A DNA stretch of 31,167 nt, filler included, from an uncultured virus (IMG/VR IMGVR_UViG_2061766007_001353) (2 parts of one record of this genome joined end to end with filler, not necessarily neighbours in it), one strand, 5' to 3'. Shown: positions 4,479 through 29,186, numbered from the whole stretch's first letter. Notes: generated by a model not told the origin, from the sequence alone. Program-made: numbers and translations.

Positions 4479-4518
4479 TTTTAGCATGCTTTTCCTCCTT
4501 TAGCATGCTTTTTCTTTT
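4479..4518 (+). promoter_or_regulatory. Hairpin / direct repeat (TTAGCATGCTTTT x2) with an anti-Shine-Dalgarno loop; possible terminator or translational control element
   Basis: AGCATGCT palindrome twice (4483-4490, 4502-4509) flanking TTTCCTCCTTT, followed by a T-run. Confidence 0.5.
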
Positions 4519-7393: not shown

Positions 7394-7810
7394 ATGCAGA
7401 TAAAGTCAGAGGAACGTGTTAAGAAGCATGGGGAAGTATTTACAAATAATAGAGAGGTAAATGCTATGCTTGACTTAATACCTAATATAACTGTTGATAT
7501 GACTTTTTTAGAACCGACTTGTGGAAATGGAAATTTTGTTGTTGAGATAATGAAACGAAAGTTTGATTTATGTAAGAAAAAACCAGATTATATACGAGCG
7601 TTAGAAAGCGTTGTAGCAATAGATATTATGGCTGATAATATCCAAGAGTGTAAGCAAAGGGTAAAAGATTTGTATTTGTCTTATGGACAAAAAGAAAACA
7701 TAGATGTTATTCTTGATACACAAATATTTCAGGGAAATAGTTTAGCAATAATGAGGTTATTGGAAAAATGCCAAGATGGACAAGTTGTTATGTTGACCCA
7801 AGAGCCATAA
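7394..7810 (+). CDS. DNA amino-methyltransferase, N-terminal SAM-binding half
   Basis: Motif X GEVFT and motif I FLEPTCGNGNF; no NPPY. Confidence 0.8.
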   Translation: MQIKSEERVKKHGEVFTNNREVNAMLDLIPNITVDMTFLEPTCGNGNFVVEIMKRKFDLCKKKPDYIRALESVVAIDIMADNIQECKQRVKDLYLSYGQKENIDVILDTQIFQGNSLAIMRLLEKCQDGQVVMLTQEP

Positions 7811-8945
7811 AAAACGAAGGACAAATGGGCTTATACAAATGCGAGAGGTGTGGTAGGCTGCATTGGTATAAAATGTGTGCAAGAAAAAGCAAAGCAGAGT
7901 ATGACAGAGGTGAGGAGCTTGAAACTCACGCATATAGTTTCATCCATACCGACGAACAGCGAAACTCCGCTTTGTTTCGGAGGTTAAAAGATATGAAATT
8001 TGACGTAATTATAGGGAATCCGCCCTATCAATTAAGCGATGGTGGGCATGGAGCAAGTGCAATGCCAATATATCATCTGTTTATTCAACAAGCAAAACGA
8101 TTAAATCCGAGATATTTAACCATGATTATACCTGCAAGGTGGTATGCTGGTGGACGTGGTTTAGAAAATTTTAGAGATGAAATGTTACATGATGATAGAA
8201 TAAGTATATTAGTTGATTATCCTGTATCTGAAGATTGTTTCCCTGGTGTGAATATTGAAGGTGGTATTTGTTATTTTTTATGGAATAGAGATGATAAAGG
8301 AATATGCCTAGTTAAGACTTATAAGGGAAATAATAAAATTTCTGAAATGAAAAGACCCTTATTAGAAGAAAATTGTAAAACTTTTATTCGATATAACGAA
8401 GCAATATCTATTTTAAGAAAAGTTCAAGCAAAAAAAGAAAAATTATTAATTGACCAAATTAGTTCAATGAAACCGTTTGGCTTACGTACTTATTTTGATG
8501 AATATGAGCAAAATGAATNNNNNNNNNNNNNNNNNNNNNNNNNNNNNNNNNNNNNNNNNNNNNNNNNNNNNNTACTCAATGGATACCTTTATATAAAGTA
8601 ATTATTTCAAGAGCTTATGGAATGGGAAATACTCAACCTTATCAGGTAATAAATAAACCAATAAATGCTGGGAAGAATTCGTGCTGTACAGAAACCTATA
8701 TAGTTTTAGGAAATTATCAAAATAAAATAGAAGCTCAAAATTTATATAATTATATTAGAACTCGTTTGTTTAGGTTCTTAGTATTGTTAAGAAAAAATAC
8801 ACAGGATGCTCCAAAACATGTTTATTCATTTGTTCCTATCCAAGATTTCAACGAAGAATGGACTGACGAAAAATTATACAAAAAATACGGATTAACACAA
8901 GATGAAATTGATTTTATCGAATCAATGATAAGACCTATGGATTAA
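7768..8945 (+). CDS. Eco57I-like N6-adenine methyltransferase catalytic and target-recognition part (one gene, broken in the ORF track by the N gap 8519-8572)
   Basis: FDVIIGNPPY, IIPARW, FPGV.IEGG. After the gap the frame TQWIPLYKVIISRAYG runs into ORF 8622-8945, which ends WTDEKLYKKYGLT..EIDFIESMIRPM. Confidence 0.8.
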
Positions 8946-8957
8946 GGAGGTGTATTT

Positions 8958-9152
8958 ATGAATACATTTAAGTTAGCAGAAGCACTCAGAGTAGATACTA
9001 CCTGTAAGAAGGAAGAAATTACTAGAATTAGAAATGAATTTGGTGTGGGTATAGAAACTGCTATGGAGTTAATTATTGAACCTAGAATAATAGCTAGAAT
9101 TGAAGAACTTGTATCTATTTTGTTAGAGGAAGTAGGTGTAGTAAGATGGTAA
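8958..9152 (+). CDS. Small hypothetical protein
   Basis: Strong RBS AAGGAGGTG before ATG; 64 aa. Confidence 0.7.
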   Translation: MNTFKLAEALRVDTTCKKEEITRIRNEFGVGIETAMELIIEPRIIARIEELVSILLEEVGVVRW

Positions 9153-9985
9153 AAACAGGGGATGATTTTGCATTTAGCATAACACAAAACGGAAAAGAAC
9201 TAGATAAAAGCAAATATACTTGGGATGAAAAAACAAGAACATTAAGTACTGTAGAAAGTAACCTAGTATTAGATTTCTTTGGGTATGACGAAGTAACATT
9301 CAATACTGGTTCACACTGTACATTTAAGACTGGTCATAGTTGTACNNNNNNNNNNNNNNNNNNNNNNNNNNNNNNNNNNNNNNNNNNNNNNNNNNNNNNN
9401 NNNNNNNNNNNNAATAGTTGCACATTCAGAACTGGTTCCGATTGCGTAGCTGTAAGACGAGATATTTTTGAGGTTATAATATTACCTAAAAACGAAACAG
9501 TGCAATTATGCCCTGGTGGTATAGAAGGTTATGTGAAAGACGGTTATTATTATAAAAACAACAAAAAACAATACAAGGCGATAATAGCAGACAAAATATT
9601 GTCAGAAATAATTAATCATAAAGGTAATGTTTATAGAGTTAAAAATTACGGTTCAGATAAAATAACTTATTTGATTAAAGACGGTGATATATACTCTCAT
9701 GGTGATACATTAAAAGAGGCTAAAGACAGTTTAATTTATAAAATCTCAAACAGAGATACATCAATGTATAAAGATTATACACTTGATACAAAAATTACAC
9801 TTGAACAAGCAATAAAGATGTACAGAACAGTTACAGGAGCTTGTGAGGGTGGTACCAGGCATTTTGTTGAAACTCACGAATTACCAAAGAAAATGACAGT
9901 AAAAGAATTAATTGAAATTACACAAGGTCAATATGGTAATAGAGAATTAGTAGAATTTTTGAGGACGGTAAGTAAATGCAGGTAA
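9146..9985 (+). CDS. Second 8-aa CTFxTG repeat protein (repeat tract partly in a gap)
   Basis: Same N-terminal NGKELD.S.YTWD segment, same repeats and near-identical C-terminus as 6338-7393. Confidence 0.8.
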   Translation: MVKTGDDFAFSITQNGKELDKSKYTWDEKTRTLSTVESNLVLDFFGYDEVTFNTGSHCTFKTGHSCXXXXXXXXXXXXXXXXXXXXXXXNSCTFRTGSDCVAVRRDIFEVIILPKNETVQLCPGGIEGYVKDGYYYKNNKKQYKAIIADKILSEIINHKGNVYRVKNYGSDKITYLIKDGDIYSHGDTLKEAKDSLIYKISNRDTSMYKDYTLDTKITLEQAIKMYRTVTGACEGGTRHFVETHELPKKMTVKELIEITQGQYGNRELVEFLRTVSKCR

Positions 9986-11719: not shown

Positions 11720-11748
11720 TTGACATGCTTATTCCCACATGTTATCAT
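11720..11748 (+). promoter_or_regulatory. sigma70-type promoter of the recombination operon
   Basis: TTGACA 11720-11725, 17 bp, TGt-TATCAT 11743-11748. Confidence 0.75.
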
Positions 11749-14836: not shown

Positions 14837-15664
14837 ATGATTCAAAGTATAAAAGAGTCTGATTTTGTTAAGGCACTTGTAGAGGAAGTTGATGATACTA
14901 TACAAGTACAGATAGTAGACAAAGAGACTAAGAAAGAATTAGATTTAGATTTAGACGGTAAGACAGACGTATTAGTAGGTCATGGGGATAAAGAGATTTT
15001 AAATCCTGACGCTGAAAAAATGTCTATTGTAGATGACGAAGAAAAAGTCAGTGAAGACTTAGAAGAAAAAGAAGATTTGTATGAGTTTGATCAAGTTGGT
15101 AATTACGTTGAAAGTAGGGAACAGTTCATGGACTTACCTATTTGGAAATGTGTAGCTGTTGATTTGACTAAGTTAATTGAAGACTATTCAAACGAGGTTG
15201 GTGGGGATAAAGAGGATGCAGAGATAGTATCTATTATATCACCAGATGAAATTGTAAAATTAGCTATTGAAAATGATACGTTAAAAGATCAAATTAGATA
15301 TACTTACTATGAGTCACAGGTAGACGGTTCATATATAGGTGATTCAAGATATTCTGAAGACTTGTTAAAGTTGTTAAAAGAACATGGTATTACTTATATG
15401 GAATCTTTTGGTAGTGGTAGTGTGGCAAATATTGGCTACTCACCAAAAGAAAATAAATGGTATGGCTGGTCACATAGAGCATTCTACGGATTTGGTTTAG
15501 GTGACGTTGTACAAGAGGGCGATATAACAAGCATACCAGCTTTAGAAGACTCTTATGCAGTGCAACACCCTGAAATGTGTTATAATTTGCCAGTAGGTTT
15601 CACAGCATTTACATTAAATGACGCTAAGAGAATGGCTATGGCATTTGCAGATTACGTTGGATAA
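14837..15664 (+). CDS. Acidic hypothetical phage protein with a C-terminal IGYS...KWYGWSHRA motif
   Basis: 275-aa ORF after a promoter; conserved-looking aromatic motif, function unknown. Confidence 0.75.
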   Translation: MIQSIKESDFVKALVEEVDDTIQVQIVDKETKKELDLDLDGKTDVLVGHGDKEILNPDAEKMSIVDDEEKVSEDLEEKEDLYEFDQVGNYVESREQFMDLPIWKCVAVDLTKLIEDYSNEVGGDKEDAEIVSIISPDEIVKLAIENDTLKDQIRYTYYESQVDGSYIGDSRYSEDLLKLLKEHGITYMESFGSGSVANIGYSPKENKWYGWSHRAFYGFGLGDVVQEGDITSIPALEDSYAVQHPEMCYNLPVGFTAFTLNDAKRMAMAFADYVG

Positions 15665-15875: not shown

Positions 15876-16314
15876 GAAAACACAGGTTAAAATTAGACGT
15901 GTAGCTAATGTAGAATTACCAAAGTATGAAACAGCGGGTGCTAGTGGTTTGGATTTAAGAGCAGCTATTAGTGAACCGATGACTTTAAAACCAATGGAGA
16001 GACAATTAGTACCTACTGGTATTCAAATTGAACTTGAAAGAGGTTGGGAAGCACAAGTTAGACCTCGTTCTGGTATGTCGTGGAAAAGAGGTTTAACGTT
16101 AGTAAATTGCGTAGGAACTATCGACAGTGACTACCGTAATACTATTATGGTTCCAATGATCAACTTATCAGAAGAAGAACAAACTATACAACCTAATGAT
16201 AGAATTGCACAAATGGTTATCTGTCCAGTAGAGCAGGTAGAATTAGTAGAAGTAGAAGATTTATCAGATACAGTTCGTGGTTTAGGTGGTTTTGGTAGTA
16301 CAGGTGTTCAATAA
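15853..16314 (+). CDS. dut: Trimeric dUTPase
   Basis: SGLDL, VRPRSG, GTIDSDYR, RIAQ, RG.GGFGSTG motifs. Confidence 0.95.
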   Translation: MEMNCLDRKTQVKIRRVANVELPKYETAGASGLDLRAAISEPMTLKPMERQLVPTGIQIELERGWEAQVRPRSGMSWKRGLTLVNCVGTIDSDYRNTIMVPMINLSEEEQTIQPNDRIAQMVICPVEQVELVEVEDLSDTVRGLGGFGSTGVQ

Positions 16315-16685
16315 TGATTAGTGACGACTTGGTTCTTATTAAGAATATATCTTTAAGAGTGGCAAAATTCTTTTTAGTGATGTTGGAGTATATGATACGT
16401 TTTTTGTATCTACTCTGTCCATTTGGCTTAATACTTTTGGCAGTATCATTAAGAGACAAAATGAACACAGCGAGGGTGTTAAATTTACATTTGAACGATA
16501 AATCAGTGTTCCAATTTATATACCCTAATACAATAATAGTATTGCAGGATAAGGATAAGATGAAAAATTCAGTGAAAAAAGTTAGTTTTAAGATTAATAA
16601 CTTCTTAGGAGAGTACAAGTATCTATTAGTTACAGCTCTTTTATCAGCAGTTATTATTGCAATTTGTTTAAGTGGAAGGGTATAA
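16314..16685 (+). CDS. Putative membrane protein
   Basis: Hydrophobic stretches near both termini; TAATG coupling to dut. Confidence 0.6.
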   Translation: MISDDLVLIKNISLRVAKFFLVMLEYMIRFLYLLCPFGLILLAVSLRDKMNTARVLNLHLNDKSVFQFIYPNTIIVLQDKDKMKNSVKKVSFKINNFLGEYKYLLVTALLSAVIIAICLSGRV

Positions 16686-16686
16686 G

Positions 16687-17283
16687 ATGGTAGAAAAAAT
16701 AGAAAGAGAATTAGAAGTATTACGAAATACTATTAAGTCAGAAATTCCGTATGATAATGCATATTTCATGCATGTACATACAGTATGTACAGACATAGTT
16801 AATAACTTTATTTCAGAACCTGAAGACGAAGTAGGTATTTTGAGATTAGTAAATAAAGCACTACCTTACGCTAAGAGTGGTGGTAATATGAATACAGAGT
16901 TAGTTGCTCTTACTTATTTAATGGAAATTCCAGAAGTCCTACAGGAAGAAAAGTTAAAAGAATTAGAAACAACTAAGAACACAATTATTAAGACTTTACA
17001 AAAAAGAGCAGATGTAGATTTCTTCCACCCAAGAAAGTATGTTGCTTACTTAGTTAAACTTGCAAATGATAAAGAATTTACAGCTTTATTAGCAGAGTTT
17101 TTGTATTTACAAGTAATGGCAGAAATCGGTTTAGAAGAAGGCTCAAGAGTTGATAAGTTAATTAACAATACAACTTTAGCGTATATAGATACACAATTAG
17201 ATTTGAATGATTTAGCATTAGACTCTCTAACTAGAGGTGCTAGAAACGATTTTGCTATACTAGTTAATAAATTTGATATTTAA
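16687..17283 (+). CDS. Hypothetical protein, weakly HD-domain-like (degenerate)
   Basis: ATG 16687 with RBS GGAAGGG; AYFMHVHTV recalls the PY..H...V HD-domain start, but there is no HD dyad. Confidence 0.6.
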   Translation: MVEKIERELEVLRNTIKSEIPYDNAYFMHVHTVCTDIVNNFISEPEDEVGILRLVNKALPYAKSGGNMNTELVALTYLMEIPEVLQEEKLKELETTKNTIIKTLQKRADVDFFHPRKYVAYLVKLANDKEFTALLAEFLYLQVMAEIGLEEGSRVDKLINNTTLAYIDTQLDLNDLALDSLTRGARNDFAILVNKFDI

Positions 17284-17315
17284 TGCCTCATTTTGGTTGT
17301 TTGTATCATATGATT

Positions 17316-17349
17316 GTCAAACACTGTTATCAGTGTTTGACTTTTCTTT
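17316..17349 (+). terminator. Rho-independent terminator overlapping the next -35 box
   Basis: GTCAAACACTG-TTAT-CAGTGTTTGAC followed by TTTTCTTT. Confidence 0.8.
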
Positions 17350-17365
17350 ATTTTTATGGTAAAAT
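17337..17365 (+). promoter_or_regulatory. sigma70-type promoter
   Basis: TTGACT 17337-17342, 17 bp, TGg-TAAAAT 17360-17365; the GTG start only 6 nt later implies a near-leaderless mRNA. Confidence 0.65.
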
Positions 17366-17371
17366 GAGCAT

Positions 17372-17674
17372 GTGAAGCGTGAAGATAAATTATTAGGTGG
17401 TGAAATTGTCTTTTTGAGTATTATTGGATTAATACCAGTTATCAATATTGCTCTAATTATTTATGAAATATCACATAGTTTACATATACTAAGCTATTTA
17501 ATAATTGGGGAAGTAGTAGTATATGTAGAAGATTATTTAAGAGAGTTTCTTATTTGCTTAGCTTTATTACCAGTAGCATTTATTACAGCAAATGTAGTAT
17601 TGTTTATGTTATTAGTATTTAACATGGCAGGTTATGCTTACTTGGTAATGAGAAGAGTAAGTAAGGTAAAATAG
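17372..17674 (+). CDS. Small multi-pass membrane protein (about 3 TM segments)
   Basis: 100 aa, mostly hydrophobic, basic C-terminus RRVSKVK. Confidence 0.65.
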   Translation: MKREDKLLGGEIVFLSIIGLIPVINIALIIYEISHSLHILSYLIIGEVVVYVEDYLREFLICLALLPVAFITANVVLFMLLVFNMAGYAYLVMRRVSKVK

Positions 17675-17724
17675 TTAGAAATTTAGTAGTTAAGATTATA
17701 TTTTAAGGGTAGAGAGAGTAATTA

Positions 17725-18021
17725 ATGAGAGTAGACAGAATCGGGGTGACACCTCAAGCTACAAGTTTGAAAAACATTAGCTTTATGAAGGATGAGATGG
17801 AAAATAGGAAAGTTATCTTGAGAGATAACATATACAGAAGATGGGTGTCAACCCCTGTGAACGAGGACACTTATGAACAACTATTAGCAGAATATAGTTC
17901 ATACTTACAGTCTAATGTATGTGACGATAAAATTATAAGAACAGATATTATAGCTGTCTTATATAAAGGGTTAATAGAAAAATTTAATAAGTGGCTAAGA
18001 CTAGGAAAAGAAGAAGATTAA
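17725..18021 (+). CDS. Hypothetical protein
   Basis: 98-aa ORF with purine-rich RBS. Confidence 0.65.
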   Translation: MRVDRIGVTPQATSLKNISFMKDEMENRKVILRDNIYRRWVSTPVNEDTYEQLLAEYSSYLQSNVCDDKIIRTDIIAVLYKGLIEKFNKWLRLGKEED

Positions 18022-18047
18022 TTTCAATTTCGCAGATCTAAAATAAC

Positions 18048-18076
18048 AAGAGGTTTTAACAAACCTCTTTTCTTTT
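18048..18076 (+). terminator. Rho-independent terminator
   Basis: AAGAGGTTT-TAAC-AAACCTCTT followed by a T-run. Confidence 0.8.
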
Positions 18077-18081
18077 ACTTT

Positions 18082-18110
18082 TTGACATGTTTGAATTTTT
18101 ACTGTAATAT
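18082..18110 (+). promoter_or_regulatory. sigma70-type promoter
   Basis: TTGACA 18082-18087, 17 bp, TAATAT 18105-18110. Confidence 0.7.
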
Positions 18111-18124
18111 ATTATATAAGAGGT

Positions 18125-18634
18125 GTGCGTGTGAAAATAGCGGACTTAGAAATTGATTTAAAAACAGTAAATGATTTAGCAGTAGAGTTAAACAAGAGTA
18201 ATATTAGTTTAGAGGAATTTACAGACAAAAGTACATTACTAGAGGGATTGAGTAATACAGTAAATTTACTCATTGCTAACAAAGTATTAAAAAGTGGAGA
18301 TATACACGCTTTTGTGCAACAAAAACTAGAAAGAATTTTCTGGGGCAAAGAACTTACACCTACTGAGGTTTTATTTGAACAAACTTTTGGTGTGGTGATA
18401 GGTGAGGTTACGGATACTTTATTATGTGAACTACTATTGTTTTTAACACAAAAGAAGACAATAACATTACCTACACTACCGAATAGAGATGTATTATTTA
18501 ATACAATACTACTAAGTATATTAAATTTACATATGCTAATATCACAGAAGAGTATTTTTAGGAATGAGGTTAAAAGAGTTTATATGAGGGCGGTTAGAAA
18601 TGGATTCAGACAAACAAAAGATAGAACAAAGTGA
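18125..18634 (+). CDS. Hypothetical protein (start 18125 or GTG 18131)
   Basis: 169-aa ORF after a promoter, RBS AGAGGTG. Confidence 0.7.
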   Translation: MRVKIADLEIDLKTVNDLAVELNKSNISLEEFTDKSTLLEGLSNTVNLLIANKVLKSGDIHAFVQQKLERIFWGKELTPTEVLFEQTFGVVIGEVTDTLLCELLLFLTQKKTITLPTLPNRDVLFNTILLSILNLHMLISQKSIFRNEVKRVYMRAVRNGFRQTKDRTK

Positions 18635-18734
18635 TATTTTTTACACTGGTGAAGAAACTATGATAGACATACCAGATGACGCAATAATTATAAGAGTAGA
18701 AGATTTAAAAGATTTTAAGATCGTGGAGGAATAA
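18600..18734 (+). CDS. 44-aa acidic small protein, not in the ORF track
   Basis: MDSDKQKIEQSDIFYTGEETMIDIPDDAIIIRVEDLKDFKIVEE*; fills the gap before thyX and has GAGGG upstream. Confidence 0.5.
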   Translation: MDSDKQKIEQSDIFYTGEETMIDIPDDAIIIRVEDLKDFKIVEE

Positions 18735-18736
18735 GG

Positions 18737-19507
18737 ATGAATGTAGATTTAATTAGTCATACACCTAACATACTAGAGGTAATATATAGAGCTGCAAGAA
18801 CTTGTTATAGTGCAATGACACCAAGAGATATGTGGAATAAAGTTCTCCGAGAAAATTTGTCTGAAGAGGAACTAAAGGGTAAAATGACTTTTTTAATAGA
18901 TAAAGTTTTAGGTAGTTGTCATGAGAGTATCGCAGAACATGCTTACTTTACTTTTGCTGTAGAGGGTATTGACAGAGCAACCCTTGCACAAATTACGAGA
19001 CATCGTACTGGTATTGCTTTCTCAGTACAGTCACAAAGATATGTCGAAATAAAAGAAAGTAAAAAAGACTTGGTAAAATTACTAGATAATTATGACCAAG
19101 CAGAAATATATACATTAGTAGATAAATACTTTGTAGTAGATAGAGAAGACCATGCTTTGCAACATATTTGTTTGATGTCTTTAATTAACTATAGAGATCT
19201 AATAGAAAATCATGGTAAGAAAGCAGAAGACGCTAGAGCAGTCTTACCAAATTGCACGAAAACAAATATGATCATTTCAATGAACTTGAGAGAATTTATG
19301 CATATCTGTAATTTACGTTTATGTACAAAGGCACAACTACCGATAAGACAAATGGTACAAGCAATGGTTAAAGAGGTAGTAAAAGTAGAACCTGCAATTA
19401 GTAAATATTTAGTACCTAAGTGTGTGTCTATGGGTTATTGTAATGAATCAGATAGTTGTGGCAGAGTTAAAGTTACGAAAGAAGATTTAGTAGGATTGCA
19501 AAAATAA
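18737..19507 (+). CDS. thyX: Flavin-dependent thymidylate synthase
   Basis: HESIAEH, QITRHR...SVQSQRY signature, EDAR.VLP, NLRE, AQ..IR. Confidence 0.95.
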   Translation: MNVDLISHTPNILEVIYRAARTCYSAMTPRDMWNKVLRENLSEEELKGKMTFLIDKVLGSCHESIAEHAYFTFAVEGIDRATLAQITRHRTGIAFSVQSQRYVEIKESKKDLVKLLDNYDQAEIYTLVDKYFVVDREDHALQHICLMSLINYRDLIENHGKKAEDARAVLPNCTKTNMIISMNLREFMHICNLRLCTKAQLPIRQMVQAMVKEVVKVEPAISKYLVPKCVSMGYCNESDSCGRVKVTKEDLVGLQK

Positions 19508-20283
19508 TGAACTACATGGGAAGCAAGAGAAGACTAGCTAAGTATATAGTACCTATACTACAGCACATAATTGATATGCATAACTTAAAATATTATGTAG
19601 AACCGTTTTGTGGTGGTTGTAATATTGTGGACAAAATAAAAGGTATTCCGAGAATTGCAACAGATTATCATAAGTACTTGATAGAGTTATACCGTAATAT
19701 TGATAAGCTTTCTACACTGGACACAAATCTTAGCAGAGAGGAGTACAATAATATTAGGGAGTCTTATAAACAAAAAGACAAAAAGTATGAAGATTGGTAT
19801 TATGGTGCTATTGGCTTCTTAGCTTCCTATAAAGTTAAATTTTTTGATTGTTATGGGGTGAGAGACAGTAAAAATTCTAGGAACTACTTTGAGGAACGTA
19901 TTAGAGGGTTGATAAAGCAAGCTCAAGATTTAGCAGACGTTAAATTTTACGCTAAAGACTATATGTATATATCGAAGTTAGAAAACTGCTTAATATATTG
20001 TGATCCACCTTATAAAGATACAAAAAGATATGCTACGGGTAAATTTGACCATGATAAATTTTGGGACGTAATCAGAGAAGTGTCGAAGAAAAATATAGTT
20101 TTTGTTAGCGAACAAATAGTACCAGACGATTTCAAAATAGTTTTCGAGAAAGACTTAAAATGTACATTAGATGCTGATAAAAGTAAAAAGACACACTCTA
20201 TTATTTCTGAAAAATTCGTAACAATAAATAATATAGAAGGATTAGAAGATTGGATAAAAGACAGCAAGCTAATAGAGAGATAG
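19507..20283 (+). CDS. Dam-like (D12 class) DNA adenine methyltransferase
   Basis: MNYMGSK, EPFCGG and YCDPPY motifs. Confidence 0.9.
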   Translation: MNYMGSKRRLAKYIVPILQHIIDMHNLKYYVEPFCGGCNIVDKIKGIPRIATDYHKYLIELYRNIDKLSTLDTNLSREEYNNIRESYKQKDKKYEDWYYGAIGFLASYKVKFFDCYGVRDSKNSRNYFEERIRGLIKQAQDLADVKFYAKDYMYISKLENCLIYCDPPYKDTKRYATGKFDHDKFWDVIREVSKKNIVFVSEQIVPDDFKIVFEKDLKCTLDADKSKKTHSIISEKFVTINNIEGLEDWIKDSKLIER

Positions 20284-20462
20284 TTAAGCATGTACAAAGT
20301 GTTATAGAAGAACACCCTGAATTAAGATTTCACCAAATTTTATGGCACCTTAATATAGAAGATGGTACAGACCAATTCTATGAAGAGAGTACAGCTACAT
20401 TAGCTAGATTACAAGGGTCTTTTACGGAACAAAATAATATTGAAGAGTCTTTGGAACTTTAA
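20250..20462 (+). CDS. Small hypothetical phage protein (HPELRFHQIL motif)
   Basis: 70 aa; P.LRF.Q and D.FYEES pattern typical of small phage ORFs. Confidence 0.7.
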   Translation: MDKRQQANREIVKHVQSVIEEHPELRFHQILWHLNIEDGTDQFYEESTATLARLQGSFTEQNNIEESLEL

Positions 20463-20465
20463 AAC

Positions 20466-20494
20466 TTGACAAGCATGTGAAAGCATGTTATACT
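20466..20494 (+). promoter_or_regulatory. Strong sigma70-type promoter driving the non-coding region; tandem AAGCATGT boxes in the spacer
   Basis: TTGACA 20466-20471, 17 bp, TGt-TATACT 20489-20494. Confidence 0.8.
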
Positions 20495-20500
20495 AGAAAT

Positions 20501-20760
20501 ATCAAAAGGTTTCATATAACCTACGAGACAGATAAGTAAATTATATGACCAAATTCTGTGAGGGATAATCAGACGGTAAATTTTCTCCGATAGCGTAAAA
20601 ATCGAGTTTAAATCTAAACGACGTTAGAATAGATTTCGGGCTTGTGGTGACGTCAGGACCACGTTGGTTGATTCTGGTCTAGAAACCAACTAGAATATAT
20701 GTAGGAAGAAGTAATTGCTCTTCTTACATATACTCGAACAAAACTAGTAAATTCACTAGA
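20501..20760 (+). ncRNA. Candidate structured ncRNA, 5' domain (multi-branch junction)
   Basis: No ORF of 60 aa or more; TCGAGT/ACTCGA closes four consecutive hairpins. Confidence 0.55.
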
Positions 20761-20772
20761 CAAATTGAACAT

Positions 20773-21171
20773 TAATAACTTAATATGTGTACAGTTGGCT
20801 GAACAAACTTGACAGAGTTTAAAGCATTATGTTATGAGGTATGGAAACACCTTCATACTCTTATCAAAGGGGAAGTAACATAAATACAACTTCTTTATGA
20901 ACTACAAGTACCTGTAGGAACTACTAATTATCTCTGCAAAGGGAACTATTAGTAGGGTAGCTTAAAATTCCACTTACGGGGTACACTGCCAAAGTCTACC
21001 ATGGAGCTAAGCAATACTATTTGAGGATGTCTGGTAGCATGTTCATGACAATCATGCGTCTAATTTAAAGCAAAGAGTAGCTAAATTTGTGAGACGAAAC
21101 TTGTGAACGTTTATAGAGATAGAAGTTATAGGTAATCCTTAATCCTATACTGTACACATATTAGGTTATTA
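20773..21171 (+). ncRNA. Candidate large structured ncRNA, ~400-nt domain closed by a 22-23-bp terminal helix
   Basis: 20774-20795 pairs with 21149-21170 (one G-U); at least 7 internal helices, a GCAA tetraloop and an 8-bp candidate pseudoknot. Confidence 0.65.
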
Positions 21172-21227
21172 TAATAAATTCCATAAATAACACCACAGTC
21201 ATGGTGTTACTCCTTTAAAAACGGTTA

Positions 21228-21262
21228 GGTCACTTAAAACTTAGTTTATAAGTGGCTTTTTA
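21228..21262 (+). terminator. Rho-independent terminator ending the non-coding transcript
   Basis: GGTCACTTA...TAAGTGGCT stem followed by TTTTATT. Confidence 0.7.
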
Positions 21263-21281
21263 TTATGTAGTATGAGTTAAT

Positions 21282-21310
21282 TTGACACATGCTTTTGCAT
21301 GTGGTAAGAT
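21282..21310 (+). promoter_or_regulatory. sigma70-type promoter with a palindromic CACATGC-TTTT-GCATGTG operator-like spacer
   Basis: TTGACA 21282-21287, 17 bp, TGg-TAAGAT 21305-21310. Confidence 0.75.
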
Positions 21311-21352
21311 AGTAGTATAAGAAATAAGGGAATAGGGTAGTAGATAAATAAG

Positions 21353-21817
21353 ATGGGCTTAGTGGTCAAAGAGTTATTTGAGGAGTTCTGCAAGGACGAT
21401 TTAAGTACGTATTATAAAACTCGTTTACAGCTAGAGGGTGCAATGTCTGAGAAATTTGTTGTTTTAGAACTAACAAAGAAAGAGTTAGCTAAAATAGAAA
21501 AATCAGGACGTAGTGATAGATTAGCACCGTACATTAAAGTAGTGGGTTATGAAATTATAGATAACCCTAAAGAAGTCAATTACTTCAATGATGAGATAGC
21601 ATTAAACCTATTGCAGTTAGTAATGGAGCAATTTTATGTTACGAAAAAGGGTTCTGGACACTGGGTTTCTTTTAATGCATTTAAGAAAGGTGACGGTTTT
21701 TCTGTTCAAACACCACGTTCTTATTCATTAAAAGATGCTATAGCTCATTTAGTATTAAGAGTTAAAGATAGTTTAGATAGGCATAAAGTAGTGTCAATGT
21801 TAAAGAGAAAGGATTAA
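21353..21817 (+). CDS. Hypothetical protein
   Basis: 154-aa ORF after a promoter. Confidence 0.7.
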   Translation: MGLVVKELFEEFCKDDLSTYYKTRLQLEGAMSEKFVVLELTKKELAKIEKSGRSDRLAPYIKVVGYEIIDNPKEVNYFNDEIALNLLQLVMEQFYVTKKGSGHWVSFNAFKKGDGFSVQTPRSYSLKDAIAHLVLRVKDSLDRHKVVSMLKRKD

Positions 21818-21818
21818 G

Positions 21819-22094
21819 ATGAAACTATTTGACAAGATGTTAGACAAAATGATAGGTAAATACATTGAAAAGAAATTTGAAGAGTTCAAACCTGTCTTAG
21901 AACACTTAAAAAGTGAGGGTAAGAAGCAAGCTGCAGCTAAACTGAAAGATTTACAAGGTAAAGCGTTAGAAAATATTGAGTTATTTGTAACTGGTAAGAA
22001 AGCAGAAATTGCAACAATGCTTGAAGTTAAAAAAGCTGAACTATTAGAAGAGCTTAAGAATATAGCTCTTGAAAAGTTAAATAAGAAAAAATAA
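21819..22094 (+). CDS. K/E-rich helical hypothetical protein
   Basis: 91 aa, RBS AAAGGA. Confidence 0.7.
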   Translation: MKLFDKMLDKMIGKYIEKKFEEFKPVLEHLKSEGKKQAAAKLKDLQGKALENIELFVTGKKAEIATMLEVKKAELLEELKNIALEKLNKKK

Positions 22095-22111
22095 GTTAAC
22101 CTTTTATTCCT

Positions 22112-22143
22112 GTAAGTGCTGCACTACGTAGCACTTACTATTC
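22112..22143 (+). terminator. Hairpin, probable terminator or stabiliser
   Basis: GTAAGTGCTGC-ACTAC-GTAGCACTTAC 11-bp stem, weak T tail. Confidence 0.55.
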
Positions 22144-22184
22144 TAAAATAAGAGAGAAATAGTAAAGATAGAGAGATTTGAGAG

Positions 22185-22430
22185 ATGAGAACTAAATACG
22201 AGTTGATTTTAGAGAATAGAGCGTTAAAGCAACTACAGAGAAAAGCTGATTACATCACAAATTATACAGATATATTAAAGGATTATGTACAAGTTGTAGC
22301 TAACGAAAAAGAGGAACATAAGGATTTAGGTCTAACCTTGTGCTCTGATATTAATAATTTGTGTGAAGAAATGCAAGAAATGTTAGGTATAATGTTAGTA
22401 TGTAATGAAAGTTTAGTAGAATGCAGATAA
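22185..22430 (+). CDS. Hypothetical protein
   Basis: 81-aa ORF, GAGAG RBS. Confidence 0.6.
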   Translation: MRTKYELILENRALKQLQRKADYITNYTDILKDYVQVVANEKEEHKDLGLTLCSDINNLCEEMQEMLGIMLVCNESLVECR

Positions 22431-22645
22431 AGAACATGTTATTTAAGTTTGATACTGGTGATAGTGTACAAAATATAGCTTTAAAAACTATACAAAGTAT
22501 TACTATAAAGCATGACGGACTTCTACAAATAAGAACTAAAGAAAATGTTATATTTACTATTAGTTTATGTAACGACTTAATTCCTTTAGTACAAGAATAC
22601 TATAATGATTATTTGTGGGAAAAAACGGATAGNNNNNNNNNNTAG
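22421..22645 (+). CDS. Hypothetical protein (end in gap)
   Basis: Overlapping operon ORF. Confidence 0.55.
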   Translation: MQIKNMLFKFDTGDSVQNIALKTIQSITIKHDGLLQIRTKENVIFTISLCNDLIPLVQEYYNDYLWEKTDXXXX

Positions 22646-23521
22646 ATGATAAAGAATTGTTTTAACTATGTTGCAAGTAAAGATAGGTTGCTTGCACAAA
22701 TTAAGCCGTTATTTGACGTAACTAAGAAAAATTTTGTAGATTTATTTTGTGGTAGTGGTGTAGTAGGTGTAAATTGCTTAGATAGTTTTAGTAATGTACA
22801 TCTAAATGACGGTTGTTGGCAAGTAATTAGAATGCTAGAGTATTTTACTAATAGTAGTGTTGATAAGTTACTTAGTGAAATCGGTTCTTGCATTAAGAAA
22901 TATAACTTGAATAAGTGTAATAAAGAGGGTTTCTTAAAAGCGAGAGACGTTTATAACACTTTATGTAATACAGAGGATACGTTTAACCCTATACTTTGTT
23001 ATTGTTTAATAACACATGCTTTTAGTTATAATATAGTATTTAATAAGAATGGTGGTTTCTCAGTACCGTCTGGTGCAGGTAGAAGTTACTTTAACTTAAG
23101 TTTGAGAGATAAGTTAATTGCTTTTACAGGCATGTTACAAGAAAATAAGAAGAAATTGTCTTTCAGTAGTGTACACTCTACTAATTTTGATATGTTTGTT
23201 AAAGGTATAGACGTAAGTGATACTTTCTTTTATGTGGATCCACCATATTATATTAGTGACAGTTCTTGTAGTAGAAGTTATGGTTTGAGATGGACAAAAG
23301 AATTAGATCTGAGACTTCTTTCTTTTTTAGATGAATTAGATAAGGGGCATGCTACTTTCGCTTTATCTAATACTATAGAGAATAATGGTTTAATTAATTC
23401 TCATTTAGCGAACTGGGCTGAAAAGTACAATATACATGACTTAGACGTTACTTATGATTACTGTCATCACCAACGTAAGAATAGAGGAACAACAAGGGAA
23501 GTTCTTATTACTAATTATTAA
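22646..23521 (+). CDS. Dam-like (D12 class) DNA adenine methyltransferase
   Basis: FNYVASK, DLFCGSG, YVDPPY, FALSN and C-terminal EVLITNY. Confidence 0.9.
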   Translation: MIKNCFNYVASKDRLLAQIKPLFDVTKKNFVDLFCGSGVVGVNCLDSFSNVHLNDGCWQVIRMLEYFTNSSVDKLLSEIGSCIKKYNLNKCNKEGFLKARDVYNTLCNTEDTFNPILCYCLITHAFSYNIVFNKNGGFSVPSGAGRSYFNLSLRDKLIAFTGMLQENKKKLSFSSVHSTNFDMFVKGIDVSDTFFYVDPPYYISDSSCSRSYGLRWTKELDLRLLSFLDELDKGHATFALSNTIENNGLINSHLANWAEKYNIHDLDVTYDYCHHQRKNRGTTREVLITNY

Positions 23522-23659
23522 CTTTTAATTTATAGAGANNNNNNNNNNNNNNNNNNNNNNNNNNNNNNNNNNNNNNNNNNNNNNNNNNNNNNNNNNNNNN
23601 NNNNNNNNNNNNNNNNNNNNNNNNNNNNNNNNNNNNNNNNNNNNNNNNNNNNNNNNNNN

Positions 23660-24633
23660 CAATAAATACTCTGTGGAAAATCTTGGTCAGTCTGTTGATT
23701 CAGATATACCACTAGTAGACGCTAGACTACATTTAAAAGATGGTACATTATTAAATAAAAGTGGGATATATACAAATTTTGTTGATTTTATGGAAGATTT
23801 NNNNNNNNNNNNNNNNNNNNNNNNNNNNNNNNNNNNNNNNNNNNNNNNNNNNNNNNNCAACTTATGGTTGTTGTGGTTGTTACGTAGTAGATACTACAAA
23901 CCATACTGTAAGACTTCCAAAAGTAAGTGAAGATAATGATAGATACTTGATTAAAGCATATACAAGTAATGGTATAACTTGTAGAATATACTCCGATGGT
24001 TGGTGTGAGCAAGAAGGTATTTGCTACGGATTTACACCTGTTACTTTGTTAAAACCTTATTTAGATACAAATTATACATTATTGCTATCTATATTAGGTG
24101 GAGGTGCTGTCTATGGTTATTACTATGGTGGAGCAATTATAAGCAATTCTAGTTTTCAAGCGGGTAGTATTGGAACTACTGCGAATGAACACCGTTGGAA
24201 AACAGAAGGTTATATCTCTTTATCAACTCAAACACCAGCGAAAAAATATAGCTATGTATGTGTTGCAACTTCAGTAAAACAACCAGCAGTTGTGGAGATA
24301 GATAACGTTGTGACAGACTTAAACGGCAAAGCAGACGTAGACTTAAGCAATTGTACAAGACCTTACATAATTGACTATTACGTTAACGGTCTGAGCGGTT
24401 ACGTTGTTTACTCTAATGGTTACTGTGAACAATGGGGATATACTAATTTAACACTTACAACTACTGTTAATCTATTAAAGACNNNNNNNNNNAATGCTAG
24501 TTCAGGTTATGCTCAAGGTAATTGTAGATTTTATGCAAATTCAGGAAGTCAAATTACCGTAATAAGTGGTATAGGTACAGCATGGGCAGTATATTGGCAT
24601 ACTTGGGGTCAATTAGCAGAAGGAGAATACTAA
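23660..24633 (+). CDS. Tail fibre protein, gapped alternative allele of 24880-26517
   Basis: Near-identical to the downstream copy except for the first YSDGWCEQ domain; flanks duplicated; interrupted by N gaps. Confidence 0.65.
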
Positions 24634-27602: not shown

Positions 27603-28820
27603 ATGACAGTTAAAAACGCAACATTAAAAGATAAGAGTGGGAATACAATACATCCTATTACAAAAGGGGTATTGGTAATTAACAATGATAGTGAAAACTT
27701 AGGTGATGTAGAAGCTGGTGCACAAGTTAATACTATAGAGGGTGTACAAGTAGCAAGTTCTGATTTAACTCCAGATTCTTCTACGAAAAAAGTAAACATT
27801 CCTGTAGCTAGTGCTAATACTTACGGTGTTATTAAAGCAGAAGCTAAAACTTCAAGTGATACACAAGAAGTTAAAATAGACGCTACAACTGGTAAGTTAT
27901 ATATAGCACCTGGTGGTGGAGTACCAGTAACTAAAGCACAATATGATACCTTAGTAGCAAACAGTCAGCTAATTCCTGGTGTTGTTTATAATATTACAGA
28001 TGACGTAACAGAAGATATAACCCCAGACGCTACAAGTAGTGTAAAAGGTGTAATGAAGCTGTATAATACAGTAGGTACTAATACAGACGGTGCCATGACA
28101 CAAGCTAGTATCGAGAGTAATTATATAAATAGTAGTAATTACCTACCCGATGGCACAACAATAACAGTTGGTGCAAGTGGGGCTGACTATACGGACTTAC
28201 AAAGTGCTATTAATTTTCTTACAGGTAAGTGGAGTAGTGGTACAGTTGTAATCTCTCTAGCACAGGATACTTACACAACTTCTAATACCATTACAATTAA
28301 TGGTGCAGTATTTAATATACCAAAATTATCTATTGAAGGTAATAACTCTACTTTAAGTATCACAAATACAACTGATTGGGCTGGTGGTATATTAATACGG
28401 CAAGGTAATGTTAGAATAGAAAACTTAATAATAGATAGAAATAGCAATAAAGGTGGCAATAATACCAGAGGACTTATAATAGAAAGACCTGATACCACTG
28501 TTCTTGCAATAAATGTTACAATTCAAAATGTAGGGCAAGATGCTGCTTATGTTGCCAGTGGTGCACATTTGAATACTGAACAAACATATATTACGATGAA
28601 TTGCGGTACAGGTATATTTTGTAGTGATGGATTTTTTACAGCAGGTTATAATACATCATTTACTGGCAATAATGTAAATACGTATTTCCAAGTAGGCGGA
28701 GGGGGTTATTTGTCGTTTCATTTTGCAAGAAGAACTTTTACAAATGTTGCAAATCAAACTTCACGAACTATTGGCACTGTTGGCACTGACGGTATCATCA
28801 CAGGTGTATGGTTGAATTAG
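27603..28820 (+). CDS. Tail fibre/spike protein with a C-terminal pectin-lyase-like beta-helix
   Basis: Fibre repeats (ASANTYGVIK, ATSSVKGVMKL); TITVGASGADYTDLQSAI beta-helix cap; G/N/T-rich rungs. Confidence 0.65.
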   Translation: MTVKNATLKDKSGNTIHPITKGVLVINNDSENLGDVEAGAQVNTIEGVQVASSDLTPDSSTKKVNIPVASANTYGVIKAEAKTSSDTQEVKIDATTGKLYIAPGGGVPVTKAQYDTLVANSQLIPGVVYNITDDVTEDITPDATSSVKGVMKLYNTVGTNTDGAMTQASIESNYINSSNYLPDGTTITVGASGADYTDLQSAINFLTGKWSSGTVVISLAQDTYTTSNTITINGAVFNIPKLSIEGNNSTLSITNTTDWAGGILIRQGNVRIENLIIDRNSNKGGNNTRGLIIERPDTTVLAINVTIQNVGQDAAYVASGAHLNTEQTYITMNCGTGIFCSDGFFTAGYNTSFTGNNVNTYFQVGGGGYLSFHFARRTFTNVANQTSRTIGTVGTDGIITGVWLN

Positions 28821-28844
28821 TTAATTAATAAAAAGGGTTATAAA

Positions 28845-29186
28845 ATGGAAAAATATATTGAAAAAATACAACAAGTATTAAATTTAATAAAAATGCGTTA
28901 TGATGAAAAAATGAACGAGTTACATATTATCGGTAATTACGGTGTTAAAGGTATGTTTGCGGATAAATATGCGATTGCATATACTGCAATGCTTGATGAT
29001 GAAGCAGAGGGATTAACTCCTGTTATCAATGCCAGCGTTTATGATAAAGACGGCAAATTATTTAATCAAGATTTTACAAAAGAGGAATTTTTGACATTAT
29101 ATCGAGAAGTAAAAGTAATTGTAAAAGAAATTGAAAAGAAATATCAGCAATATTTATCNNNNNNNNNNNNNNNNNNGAAAGATTAA
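28845..29186 (+). CDS. Putative tail fibre-associated chaperone (end in gap)
   Basis: Follows the fibre gene; paralog of 29253. Confidence 0.55.
   Translation: MEKYIEKIQQVLNLIKMRYDEKMNELHIIGNYGVKGMFADKYAIAYTAMLDDEAEGLTPVINASVYDKDGKLFNQDFTKEEFLTLYREVKVIVKEIEKKYQQYLXXXXXXXKD

What the first reader, a model, noticed from the sequence alone, without database searches (positions are those of the whole stretch)
20466..21262. Candidate large ornate phage non-coding RNA with its own promoter and terminator
Seen: this is by far the largest ORF-free, gap-free stretch (~890 bp) in a gene-dense phage. It has a near-consensus promoter (TTGACA-17-TATACT, 20466-20494) and an intrinsic terminator (21228-21262), defining a ~760-nt transcript. 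Its 3' part is closed by a 22-bp helix (20774-20795 with 21149-21170) whose only non-Watson-Crick pair is G-U on the + strand. Inside are nested helices: 20809-18/20857-67 enclosing 20833-40/20849-57; 20869-76/20889-96; 20902-06/20913-17; 20921-28/20948-55 capped by TCTCT-GCAA-AGGGA (GNRA loop); 20956-60/20996-21000; 21041-48/21101-08 enclosing CGTCT/AGACG; and 21127-32/21144-49. The loop of the last hairpin (ATCCTTAA, 21135-42) can form an 8-bp pseudoknot with TTGAGGAT (21021-28). Known: ROOL and GOLLD are phage-associated large ornate RNAs of this size class with unknown function. Inference: this is a member of such a class or a new one. I saw no hallmarks of tmRNA, RNase P, group I/II introns or tRNA.
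Basis: partly seen in the sequence, partly recalled or inferred. Interest (0 to 1): 0.88.

Follow-up and report, generated by a model that had tools for sequence, protein, structure and literature searches.

The report
Orphan abundant phage non-coding RNA locus
A gene-free 890-base stretch of an uncultured cattle-gut phage is a self-contained RNA gene whose RNA shows up in gut RNA libraries, matches no known RNA family, and has no relatives that could be found, so its fold and job remain open.

Summary
Positions 20463-21352 are the only ORF-free gap of 300 bp or more in the window. It carries a near-consensus extended -10 promoter (20466-20494), a + strand intrinsic terminator (21227-21262) and a 23-bp long-range helix (20773-20795 with 21149-21171).

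New evidence: contigs from RNA libraries of three studies lie on this stretch. They cover 20804/20808-21155/21157 (about 350 nt, "RNA-B") and, in one run, 20566-20706 ("RNA-A"). Both contig right ends fall inside the two longest duplexes, and RNA-B's left end lies 9-13 nt past the stalk's 5' arm.

My reading is a stand-alone ncRNA unit whose roughly 760-nt precursor is trimmed at these duplexes into stable products.

It is not ROOL, GOLLD, tmRNA, RNase P or an intron: Rfam gave only noise (13-16 bits). No homologue was found in any collection or in the two syntenic relative phages, so covariation could not be tested.

The "ornate" interior is unproven. Its fold is no better than shuffles (z -1.66). 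The pseudoknot is at chance level (91 of 500 shuffles).

Function is inferred only: a trans-acting stable phage RNA, comparable to ROOL, GOLLD or the phage K lncRNAs.

The parts
20466..20494 (+). Promoter P1: TTGACA-17-TATACT with TG extended -10. The predicted start is near 20501.
   Evidence: It belongs to a 5-site + strand promoter family (4517, 11720, 20466, 21282, 24826).
20501..20563 (+). Leader with a small hairpin (20512-19/20541-48). It varies between strains.
   Evidence: Fold (-8.5 kcal/mol). In DNA run X6, 4 substitutions and 4 indels are listed in these 63 nt plus 20565 (tables 3-4; 83 rows were not shown).
20564..20706 (+). RNA-A: about 143 nt, covered by an RNA-library contig. 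An adapter is joined at its left end, and its right end lies in the 5' arm of the 17-bp hairpin.
   Evidence: X3 record 2 covers 20566-20706 at word depth 235, with a loose end of adapter letters before 20566. Fold z is +1.30, so it is not specially structured.
20693..20735 (+). Long hairpin with a stem of 14-17 bp, a candidate double-strand RNase site between RNA-A and RNA-B.
   Evidence: -18.3 kcal/mol, 0 of 200 shuffles as good; probability 0.96.
20736..20772 (+). Variable linker with a small hairpin (20744-48/20755-59).
   Evidence: X6 shows six insertions totalling 14 nt at 20744-20757 (table 4).
20773..20795 (+). 5' arm of the 23-bp stalk that closes RNA-B.
20804..21157 (+). RNA-B: about 350-nt core RNA covered by RNA-library contigs of three studies. 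Predicted parts: a 5' hairpin domain (20827-20883), a multi-branch domain closed by 20892-20909/21099-21119 that contains a GCAA-capped hairpin (20921-20955), and a 3' hairpin (21128-21148).
   Evidence: X3 20808-21157 (350 nt, depth 604), X5 20804-21155 (352 nt, depth 6.6), X11 20887-21148 (262 nt, depth 6). Folds.
21149..21171 (+). 3' arm of the 23-bp stalk. The RNA-B contigs end inside it, at 21155/21157.
21188..21209 (+). 8-bp hairpin between the stalk and the terminator.
   Evidence: -8.9 kcal/mol, 1 of 200 shuffles as good.
21227..21262 (+). Intrinsic terminator: a stem of 10+4 bp with one G-U on +, followed by UUUUUAUU.
   Evidence: probability 0.93.
21282..21310 (+). Next promoter of the same family, serving ORF 21353-21817. 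It marks the right border of the RNA unit.

Best explanation
The locus is a stand-alone non-coding RNA gene of an uncultured, AT-rich virulent-type phage from the cattle gut.

Proposed mechanism:
1. Host sigma-70 RNA polymerase starts at an extended -10 promoter of the phage's own promoter family, near 20501, and stops at the intrinsic terminator near 21262. This gives a precursor of about 760 nt.
2. The precursor's two long perfect duplexes are cut by a double-strand-specific RNase, as RNase III cuts the stalks of rRNA precursors. These duplexes are the 17-bp hairpin at 20693-20735 and the 23-bp stalk 20773-95/21149-71. The leader, linker and tail are discarded.
3. A core of about 350 nt (RNA-B) and a piece of about 140 nt (RNA-A) accumulate.
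4. RNA-B then acts in trans as a stable folded RNA that serves the phage during infection, as a scaffold or decoy for a host or phage macromolecule, as is supposed for ROOL, GOLLD and the phage K lncRNAs.

Shown: non-coding; promoter and terminator; the long duplexes; RNA-library contigs on exactly these parts; no known family; single copy.

Inferred: processing by RNase III; the strand (from promoter, terminator, G-U pairs and energies); the interior fold; any function.
For: Promoter and terminator:
- Own promoter of a statistically real + strand family: 5 sites against 0.12 expected.
- A + strand terminator, with the next gene's promoter directly behind it.

Non-coding:
- No frame opens in six frames under four stop-codon readings.
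- Six-frame translation has no match in the two relative phages.
- G and C are balanced (GC skew 0.00-0.15 inside 20500-21199 against 0.2-0.5 in coding flanks) and GC is raised (0.36-0.385 against about 0.30).

RNA libraries:
- Contigs from RNA libraries of three studies lie on 20804-21157. In X3 a contig also lies on 20566-20706. Word depths are 604 and 235 in X3.
- Contigs of two studies start at 20804 and 20808 and end at 21155 and 21157 with no loose ends. A DNA-run contig (20641-21105) runs on across the left end. The tool rates this as a weak hint of a discrete end.
- The X3 contig on RNA-A ends in adapter letters at 20564/20566, so many fragments share that end.
- Both contig right ends (20706; 21155-57) lie inside the only two duplexes of 14 bp or more in the transcript.

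Strand:
- G-U pairs in the stalk and terminator.
- Full-length z -7.15 against -4.27, and RNA-B -82.2 against -70.1 kcal/mol.

Precedent: phage K makes abundant intergenic lncRNAs from its own early promoter (PMC9241854, passages read). ROOL and GOLLD are abundant phage and prophage RNAs (PMC5737381 and PMC12286853, passages read).
Against: - No homologue was found, so there is no covariation and no proof of a conserved fold.
- The interior of RNA-B folds no better than shuffles (z -1.66, 6 of 100), and RNA-A does worse (z +1.30).
- Of the 7 variant positions seen in RNA-B across four runs, 1 keeps a predicted pair (C-G to U-G), 3 break one and 3 are unpaired. None is compensated.
- Contigs cannot show ends, strand or level, and the runs were picked because they hold this stretch.
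- The left end of the RNA-B contigs (20804-08) lies 9-13 nt past the stalk arm, not in it.
- The two syntenic relatives lack the RNA, so it is dispensable for the lineage.
- One strain in DNA run X6 has unrelated sequence left of 21161.
Confidence: 0.55

Rival explanations
1. A member of a self-assembling 'ornate' class in the strict sense: the whole 594-nt span 20564-21157, which is ROOL-sized, is one RNA. On this reading the gap between the two contigs is only an assembly or reverse-transcription drop-out at the stable hairpins.
For: The span 20564-21157 is 594 nt, against a ROOL mean of 581 nt (PMC5737381, passage). Both parts are deep in the same run, at 235 and 604. GOLLD likewise has a variable 5' part and linker and a conserved 3' part (PMC12286853, passage). 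The uncovered part is exactly the most stable hairpin plus the stalk arm.
Against: Rfam gives no ROOL or GOLLD match even at E up to 10 on 406-1151 nt. The depths of the two parts differ 2.6-fold. RNA-A has no fold signal. No tRNA gene lies in the 31-kb window. Covariation is not available.
Confidence: 0.15
2. Functionless by-products: a strong promoter drives a spacer transcript, for example an insulator or a remnant of a lost gene cassette. Its nuclease-resistant hairpin-rich fragments simply survive and are picked up in RNA libraries.
For: The interior fold is not better than chance. The relatives lack the region. It lies in an accessory island with strain-level deletions and replacements. 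A decayed copy of the promoter sits inside RNA-B at 20805-20838 (and direct reading).
Against: It has a dedicated promoter-terminator pair and a perfect 23-bp stalk maintained with a + strand G-U. RNA-B contigs from three studies differ from the window at only 1-3 of 262-352 positions. Base composition is balanced, as in paired RNA.
Confidence: 0.15
3. A small mobile cassette (MITE-like) bounded by 23-bp terminal inverted repeats, which happens to be transcribed.
For: There is a 23-nt inverted repeat at both ends of a 399-bp unit. In DNA run X6 one strain diverges exactly inside the right arm, at 21161. The region is absent from the relatives.
Against: It is single copy in the window. The arm 22-mer occurs at 1 locus, as one arm only, among 185,579 genomes' contigs, and at 0 in IMG/VR. 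The internal 21-mer has 0 matches in the genomes. There is no target-site duplication by direct reading of the flanks, and no transposase nearby.
Confidence: 0.05
4. The RNA in the libraries comes from another replicon, such as the host or a plasmid, that shares this sequence. The phage copy is a captured passenger.
For: The RNA contigs are short and stop at the cassette borders, and the cassette is replaceable between strains.
Against: A DNA-run contig joins RNA-A, the linker and RNA-B in the phage arrangement (X6, 20641-21105). There is no match in the genome, metagenome or phage collections. The cassette sits between a phage promoter and a terminator.
Confidence: 0.05
5. A replication origin or primer-RNA region, or a decayed protein gene.
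For: It is a long non-coding, hairpin-rich stretch next to DNA-metabolism genes.
Against: There are no iterons or tandem repeats, only two-copy short repeats. Cumulative GC skew does not turn. There is no protein-level similarity, and stops are frequent in all frames.
Confidence: 0.03

Closest known systems
ROOL RNA (Rfam RF03087; accession recalled)
   Same: It is phage-borne, comes from the rumen or gut, is found in RNA libraries, has no ORF and is of unknown function. The span 20564-21157 (594 nt) is close to ROOL's mean of 581 nt.
   Different: There is no match to the Rfam model at E up to 10. There are no neighbouring tRNA genes. The contigs point to pieces of 350 and 140 nt. Junctions and pseudoknots are not shown.
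GOLLD RNA (Rfam RF01998; accession recalled)
   Same: It is a phage RNA with a variable 5' part and linker and a better-kept 3' domain. The function is unknown.
   Different: There is no model match. It is much shorter than 800 nt, and there is no tRNA in the linker.
Phage K (Kayvirus) lnc001 and lnc002
   Same: These are abundant intergenic non-coding RNAs of a large virulent phage, one of them from its own early promoter, with unknown function (PMC9241854, passages).
   Different: There is no sequence likeness (blastn against 50,697 phage records). The phage K RNAs lie near tRNA genes and have no reported closing stalk.
RNase III processing stalks of rRNA precursors (recalled textbook knowledge)
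   Same: The mature RNA is bracketed by a long duplex formed from its two flanks, and the observed contig end lies inside that duplex.
   Different: Cleavage was not shown here. The left contig end lies past the arm rather than in it.
phi29 prohead RNA (pRNA)
   Same: It is a phage-encoded stable RNA from a strong early promoter that is trimmed after synthesis and acts as an RNA multimer (recalled; cited in PMC12286853's reference list).
   Different: There is no Rfam match. This is a different phage type, of 100 kb or more by its relatives, and the RNA is twice the size.

Membership tests
ROOL | Match to the family covariance model | tested here: not met
   No ROOL row at gathering score or at E up to 10 on 1151, 406 and 281 nt.
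ROOL | [quoted passage not shown] | not testable with these tools
   No homologues were found. The single proposed pseudoknot is at chance level.
ROOL / GOLLD | Frequent position next to tRNA genes | tested here: not met
   ARAGORN finds 0 tRNA genes in the 31-kb window.
GOLLD | Match to the family covariance model | tested here: not met
tmRNA (including the permuted form) | tRNA-like domain plus tag reading frame | tested here: not met
   ARAGORN at default settings gives none. At 80% threshold it calls a permuted tmRNA on the - strand with an atypical tag, but the same setting gives 6 calls in 60 shuffles. There is no Rfam tmRNA match.
Group I / II introns, RNase P, 6S, pRNA, HEARO, OLE, raiA | Match to the Rfam models | tested here: not met
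   The only rows returned are manA 12.9-13 bits (gathering 55.2), Hatchet 16.4 (51), snoZ40 15.3 (50) and mir-784 13.7 (94), at E 0.5-6.
MITE / small non-autonomous transposon | Terminal inverted repeats | tested here: met
   23-nt arms, 96% complementary.
MITE / small non-autonomous transposon | Many copies and a target-site duplication | tested here: not met
   Single copy. The arm occurs at 1 single-arm locus in genome contigs and 0 in viral contigs. The flanks ...AACAT and TAATA... share no duplication.
Type III antitoxin RNA (ToxI-like) | Tandem direct repeats before a terminator and a toxin gene | tested here: not met
   There are no tandem families, only two-copy repeats of 10-19 nt. 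The downstream ORF has its own promoter and no family.
Bacterial sigma-70 transcription unit with intrinsic terminator | -35 and extended -10 elements, and a GC-containing hairpin plus U run on the same strand | tested here: met

The most novel reading that the evidence does not exclude
RNA-B is the first member of a new class of large phage RNAs. It is excised from its precursor through a dedicated 23-bp processing stalk and folds into a defined, perhaps multimeric, architecture. It works as an RNA-only device for host takeover or counter-defence. It sits in an accessory island that also holds an anti-Thoeris Tad6 homologue and three DNA methyltransferases.
Probability: 0.2. Interest if true: 0.8.

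Novelty: new variant of a known kind. Interest (0 to 1): 0.6.

Why it matters
Large stable phage RNAs such as ROOL, GOLLD and the phage K lncRNAs are abundant, yet none has a known function. Each independent class with a clean gene structure gives a new handle on that question.

This locus has a short, well-bounded unit: one promoter, one terminator and a bracketing stalk. Its RNA is seen in gut RNA libraries of several studies, and strain variants exist with the cassette replaced. Those features make deletion, expression and structure tests straightforward once a host or a surrogate is available.

If the interior proves unstructured, the case instead shows that long ORF-free, hairpin-bounded phage transcripts can pass for 'ornate' RNAs.

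Tried and rejected
Homologue searches that found nothing:
- blastn (distant mode) against 50,697 phage records gave no match at 1e-5. At E up to 5 it gave only 36-45-nt chance pieces in 9 records.
- Exact words in IMG/VR: a 19-mer gave 0, the RNA-B hairpin 18-mer gave 1 locus with the seed only, the stalk arm gave 0 and the RNA-A 18-mer gave 0.
- An 18-mer in the JGI metagenome contigs gave 7 loci, all matching the seed only.
- In the genome contigs, a 21-mer gave 0 and the stalk arm gave 1 single-arm locus.
- Flanking proteins 21353-21817 and 19507-20283 have no relatives in IMG/VR. The former has only its own cluster among 5.8 billion proteins and no Atlas hit.
- Two syntenic IMG/VR relatives were found: G001 (111 kb) and G002 (139 kb). 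They were fetched whole. nhmmer, blastn and six-frame tblastn of the region found nothing.
- The large 'gaps' in those relatives are a coding radical-SAM-like frame (G001 28060-28928) and a divergent promoter region (G002 122103-122815).
- Rfam on all of G002 gave 0 matches. The ligase has no match in the phage records.

RNA-library cover:
- The three RNA runs gave no cover of the flanking genes 16000-20419 and 21304-22600, apart from four 35-40-nt pieces in X5 at under 90% likeness. The DNA run covered 28 of 30 bins.
- A 40-nt piece (20835-20874, 4 differences) inside an otherwise unlike X5 contig could be a distant relative or chance.

Other checks:
- Antisense targets: there is no complementarity of 13 nt or more to the rest of the window. 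There were 2 twelve-mers, against 3.8 in shuffles.
- The motif GRAACTAY is not enriched: 9 against 5.3 expected.
- The manA likeness (CUGAACAAACUU) scores 12.9-13 bits at E 0.5-1.5 and was rejected.
- The search of earlier findings and the window's own genome were not available.
- Literature searches listed no paper on this RNA. I read only listings for all papers except the three cited. Supplements of PMC10690425 (ten thousand candidate viral RNAs; abstract start seen only) were not opened and could hold a related motif.

Full report
WHAT IS THERE

The window is 31.7% GC, with nearly all ORFs on the + strand. It encodes phage functions:
- a T5 A1-like protein;
- dNMP kinase and a ligase-like protein;
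- a resolvase and a UvsX-like recombinase;
- dUTPase and ThyX;
- several DNA methyltransferases;
- a Tad6 homologue.

Between 20463 and 21352 there is no ORF of 60 aa or more in any frame. It is the only gap of 300 bp or more under a greedy ORF cover. Reading any one stop codon as sense does not open a frame; the longest is 92 codons, and every frame holds 2-15 of each stop.

BORDERS

The left border is TTGACA-17-TATACT with TG, and this is not an isolated consensus hit. The pattern TTGACA-N14-16-TGNTANNNT occurs 5 times, always on +, at 4517, 11720, 20466, 21282 and 24826. Only 0.12 are expected, and 0 of 100 shuffles reach 5. Four of the sites sit in the short gaps before ORFs or before this RNA.

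The right border is a hairpin of -11.0 kcal/mol followed by UUUUUAUU on the + strand. The - strand folds at -5.8 kcal/mol and has no U run. Twenty bases later the next promoter of the family begins. The unit is therefore bounded on both sides and reads on +.

STRUCTURE

The 23-bp helix 20773-95/21149-71 is real: 22 Watson-Crick pairs and one G-U on +, against 0.01 chance matches. It is the best long-range inverted repeat of the window, with probability 0.97. A second long duplex is the hairpin 20693-20735, at -18.3 kcal/mol with 0 of 200 shuffles as good.

These two, together with the terminator and the small hairpins, produce the strong whole-transcript signal: z -7.15 on + and -4.27 on -. 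Inside the stalk the fold is not distinguishable from shuffles. It gives -82.2 kcal/mol, z -1.66, with 6 of 100 shuffles as good; the - strand gives z -0.21.

- 20921-28/20948-55 (0.98);
- its GCAA-capped tip (0.97);
- 21057-61/21092-96 (0.96);
- 21128-32/21144-48 (0.76).

Four others score 0.01-0.03 and are replaced by 20892-20909/21099-21119 (0.91-0.94) and 20911-18/20973-80 (0.80). The proposed 8-bp pseudoknot is matched or beaten in 91 of 500 shuffles. The base composition fits a paired RNA: GC skew falls to 0.00-0.15, from 0.2-0.5 in the coding flanks, and GC rises to 0.36-0.385.

IS IT MADE AS RNA?

The stretch's sampled words are held by 20 public runs. Twelve of them are on record as RNA, from 6 studies, all labelled bovine gut. 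I laid three RNA runs from three studies and one DNA run on 16000-22600. The RNA-library contigs lie on:
- 20808-21157 (X3, 350 nt, word depth 604);
- 20804-21155 (X5, 352 nt, depth 6.6);
- 20887-21148 (X11, 262 nt, depth 6);
- 20566-20706 (X3, depth 235).

They differ from the window at 1-3 positions each.

The two full contigs start within 4 nt of each other and end within 2 nt of each other, without loose ends. A DNA-run contig (20641-21105) continues across the left end. The tool rates that as a weak hint of a true end.

The X3 contig on 20566-20706 runs into adapter letters at its left end. Two letters fit 20564-65 if 20565 is T, a variant also seen in X6, so many fragments share an end at 20564. 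From my memory of Illumina adapters this is the read-1 read-through. In a dUTP-stranded library that would make 20564 the 5' end of a + strand RNA, but the library type is not on record.

Contigs cannot give level, strand or ends, and these runs were chosen because they hold the stretch. I therefore state only that RNA libraries of three studies hold these parts.

PROCESSING MODEL (INFERENCE)

The contig right ends at 20706 and at 21155-57 fall in the 5' arm of the 17-bp hairpin and in the 3' arm of the 23-bp stalk. These are the only long duplexes of the transcript.

The parts that no RNA contig covers are the leader, the 3' half of the hairpin plus linker plus the 5' stalk arm, and the tail. 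The first two of these are also where DNA run X6 lists the most differences. There are 8 events at 20507-20565 and 14 inserted bases at 20744-20757, against 3 substitutions and 1 insertion listed in 20808-21105. This carries a caveat: 83 rows were not shown, and that contig has 12 substitutions in all.

This is the pattern of a precursor trimmed at bracketing duplexes, as with RNase III and rRNA stalks. The left end of RNA-B lies 9-13 nt inside the arm. That needs further trimming, or it reflects weak end cover.

WHAT IT IS NOT

- Rfam 15 gives nothing at gathering score for the window. At E up to 10 on the region and its halves it gives only four rows of 13-16 bits: manA, Hatchet, snoZ40 and mir-784. 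That excludes ROOL, GOLLD, OLE, HEARO, raiA, tmRNA, RNase P, 6S, pRNA and introns as far as these models reach.
- ARAGORN finds no tRNA or tmRNA. A permuted-tmRNA call at an 80% threshold is noise, since the same setting gives 6 calls in 60 shuffles.
- It is single copy. It has no tandem repeats or iterons and no antisense match of 13 nt or more to the rest of the window.
- The stalk arm is not the end of a spread mobile element: 1 single-arm locus in the contigs of 185,579 genomes and 0 in IMG/VR.

RELATIVES

No homologue of the RNA was found by blastn in 50,697 phage records. Exact words in IMG/VR, the JGI metagenomes and the GTDB genomes also found none.

The phage lineage itself is barely sampled. 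The downstream ORF has only its own cluster and the ligase has no phage-record match. Two IMG/VR contigs share the gene order A1, dNMP kinase, ligase, resolvase, UvsX-like, dUTPase, methyltransferase, at 30-57% identity. In both, the dUTPase and the methyltransferase homologous to 22646-23521 lie less than 1 kb apart.

Window positions 16314-22646, which hold the RNA, ThyX and a Dam methylase, therefore form an accessory island. Neither relative holds the RNA, though by CheckV they are only 57% and 71% complete. Covariation, the decisive test for structure, could not be run.

STRAIN VARIANTS

In DNA run X6, one contig joins 20284 to 20449, so the 70-aa ORF before the promoter is missing there. 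Another contig matches 21161-21453 and then continues for 359 nt unlike anything in 16000-22600. In that strain the cassette is replaced from a point inside the right stalk arm. This fits an exchangeable accessory cassette. It is also the best argument for the mobile-cassette rival.

COMPARISON WITH KNOWN RNAS

In what it works like, the locus is closest to the abundant, function-unknown phage RNAs:
- ROOL, with a mean of 581 nt, found in rumen, phages and prophages, often by tRNAs (PMC5737381, passages);
- GOLLD, with a variable 5' part and a conserved 3' part (PMC12286853, passages);
- the phage K lncRNAs, made from an own early promoter (PMC9241854, passages).

In membership it fails the only testable defining feature of ROOL and GOLLD, the family model, and it lacks tRNA neighbours. 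I file it as a new, so far orphan, variant of the kind 'large stable phage ncRNA'.

VERDICT

- The RNA call is strengthened by RNA-library contigs.
- The 'ornate' structure and class membership are not supported.
- The function is unknown, with a trans-acting scaffold or decoy role as the working guess.
- Interest is 0.6. It is a clean, testable, unclassified phage RNA gene, but it is an orphan without comparative support.

Noticed in passing
window 14837-15664 (+): The ORF's C-terminal half matches Pfam PF25188, the Tad6 type I Thoeris inhibitor (E 2e-37). Together with the methyltransferases at 7394-8601, 19507-20283 and 22646-23521, it makes the neighbourhood look rich in counter-defence genes.
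   Followed up: no
window 4517, 11720, 20466, 21282, 24826 (+): A family of extended -10 promoters, TTGACA-N15-TGNTANNNT. By eye, four of the five spacers (not 4517) carry a CATG core, extended to GCATG(T)/(A)CATGC at 11720, 20466 and 21282. The spacers of 20466 and 21282 are inverted copies of each other (I5). This may be a shared regulator site.
   Followed up: partly
window 20805-20838: The start of RNA-B repeats the promoter P1 (AAACTTGACA ... AAAGCAT ... TGTTAT), but its -10 is spoiled to TATGAG (D7, read). It may be a decayed second promoter, which hints that the cassette was once its own unit.
   Followed up: partly
window 16314-22646 against G001 and G002: In both IMG/VR relatives the dUTPase and the 22646-type methyltransferase are adjacent, less than 1 kb apart. 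The 6.3 kb between them in the window is therefore an accessory island. ThyX lies elsewhere in the relatives.
   Followed up: partly
G001 (L010) 17674-19272: The ThyX homologue matches in two pieces separated by about 900 bp. It may be an intron or intein-type insertion, or a frame break.
   Followed up: no
window 20284-20449, 19625-19989 and 21161: DNA run X6 holds strain variants: a joint that removes 20285-20448 (the 70-aa ORF); a joint 19625 to 19989 inside the Dam gene, with a shorter side of only 25 nt; and a contig that becomes unrelated left of 21161.
   Followed up: no
L032 1001-1024: A 24-nt exact copy of the right stalk arm occurs once, without a partner arm, in a contig titled as an uncultured Saprospiraceae MAG. 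It is probably chance.
   Followed up: partly
window 6338-7393 and 9146-9985: The two ORFs begin with visibly similar N-termini (translations), so they are likely paralogues of unknown function. Neither has a PHROG or Pfam match.
   Followed up: no
window, 17 runs of N (534 bases): Masked or unknown stretches lie at, among others, 8519-8572, 9346-9412, 23539-23659 and 23801-23857. None lies in 16000-22600.
   Followed up: yes
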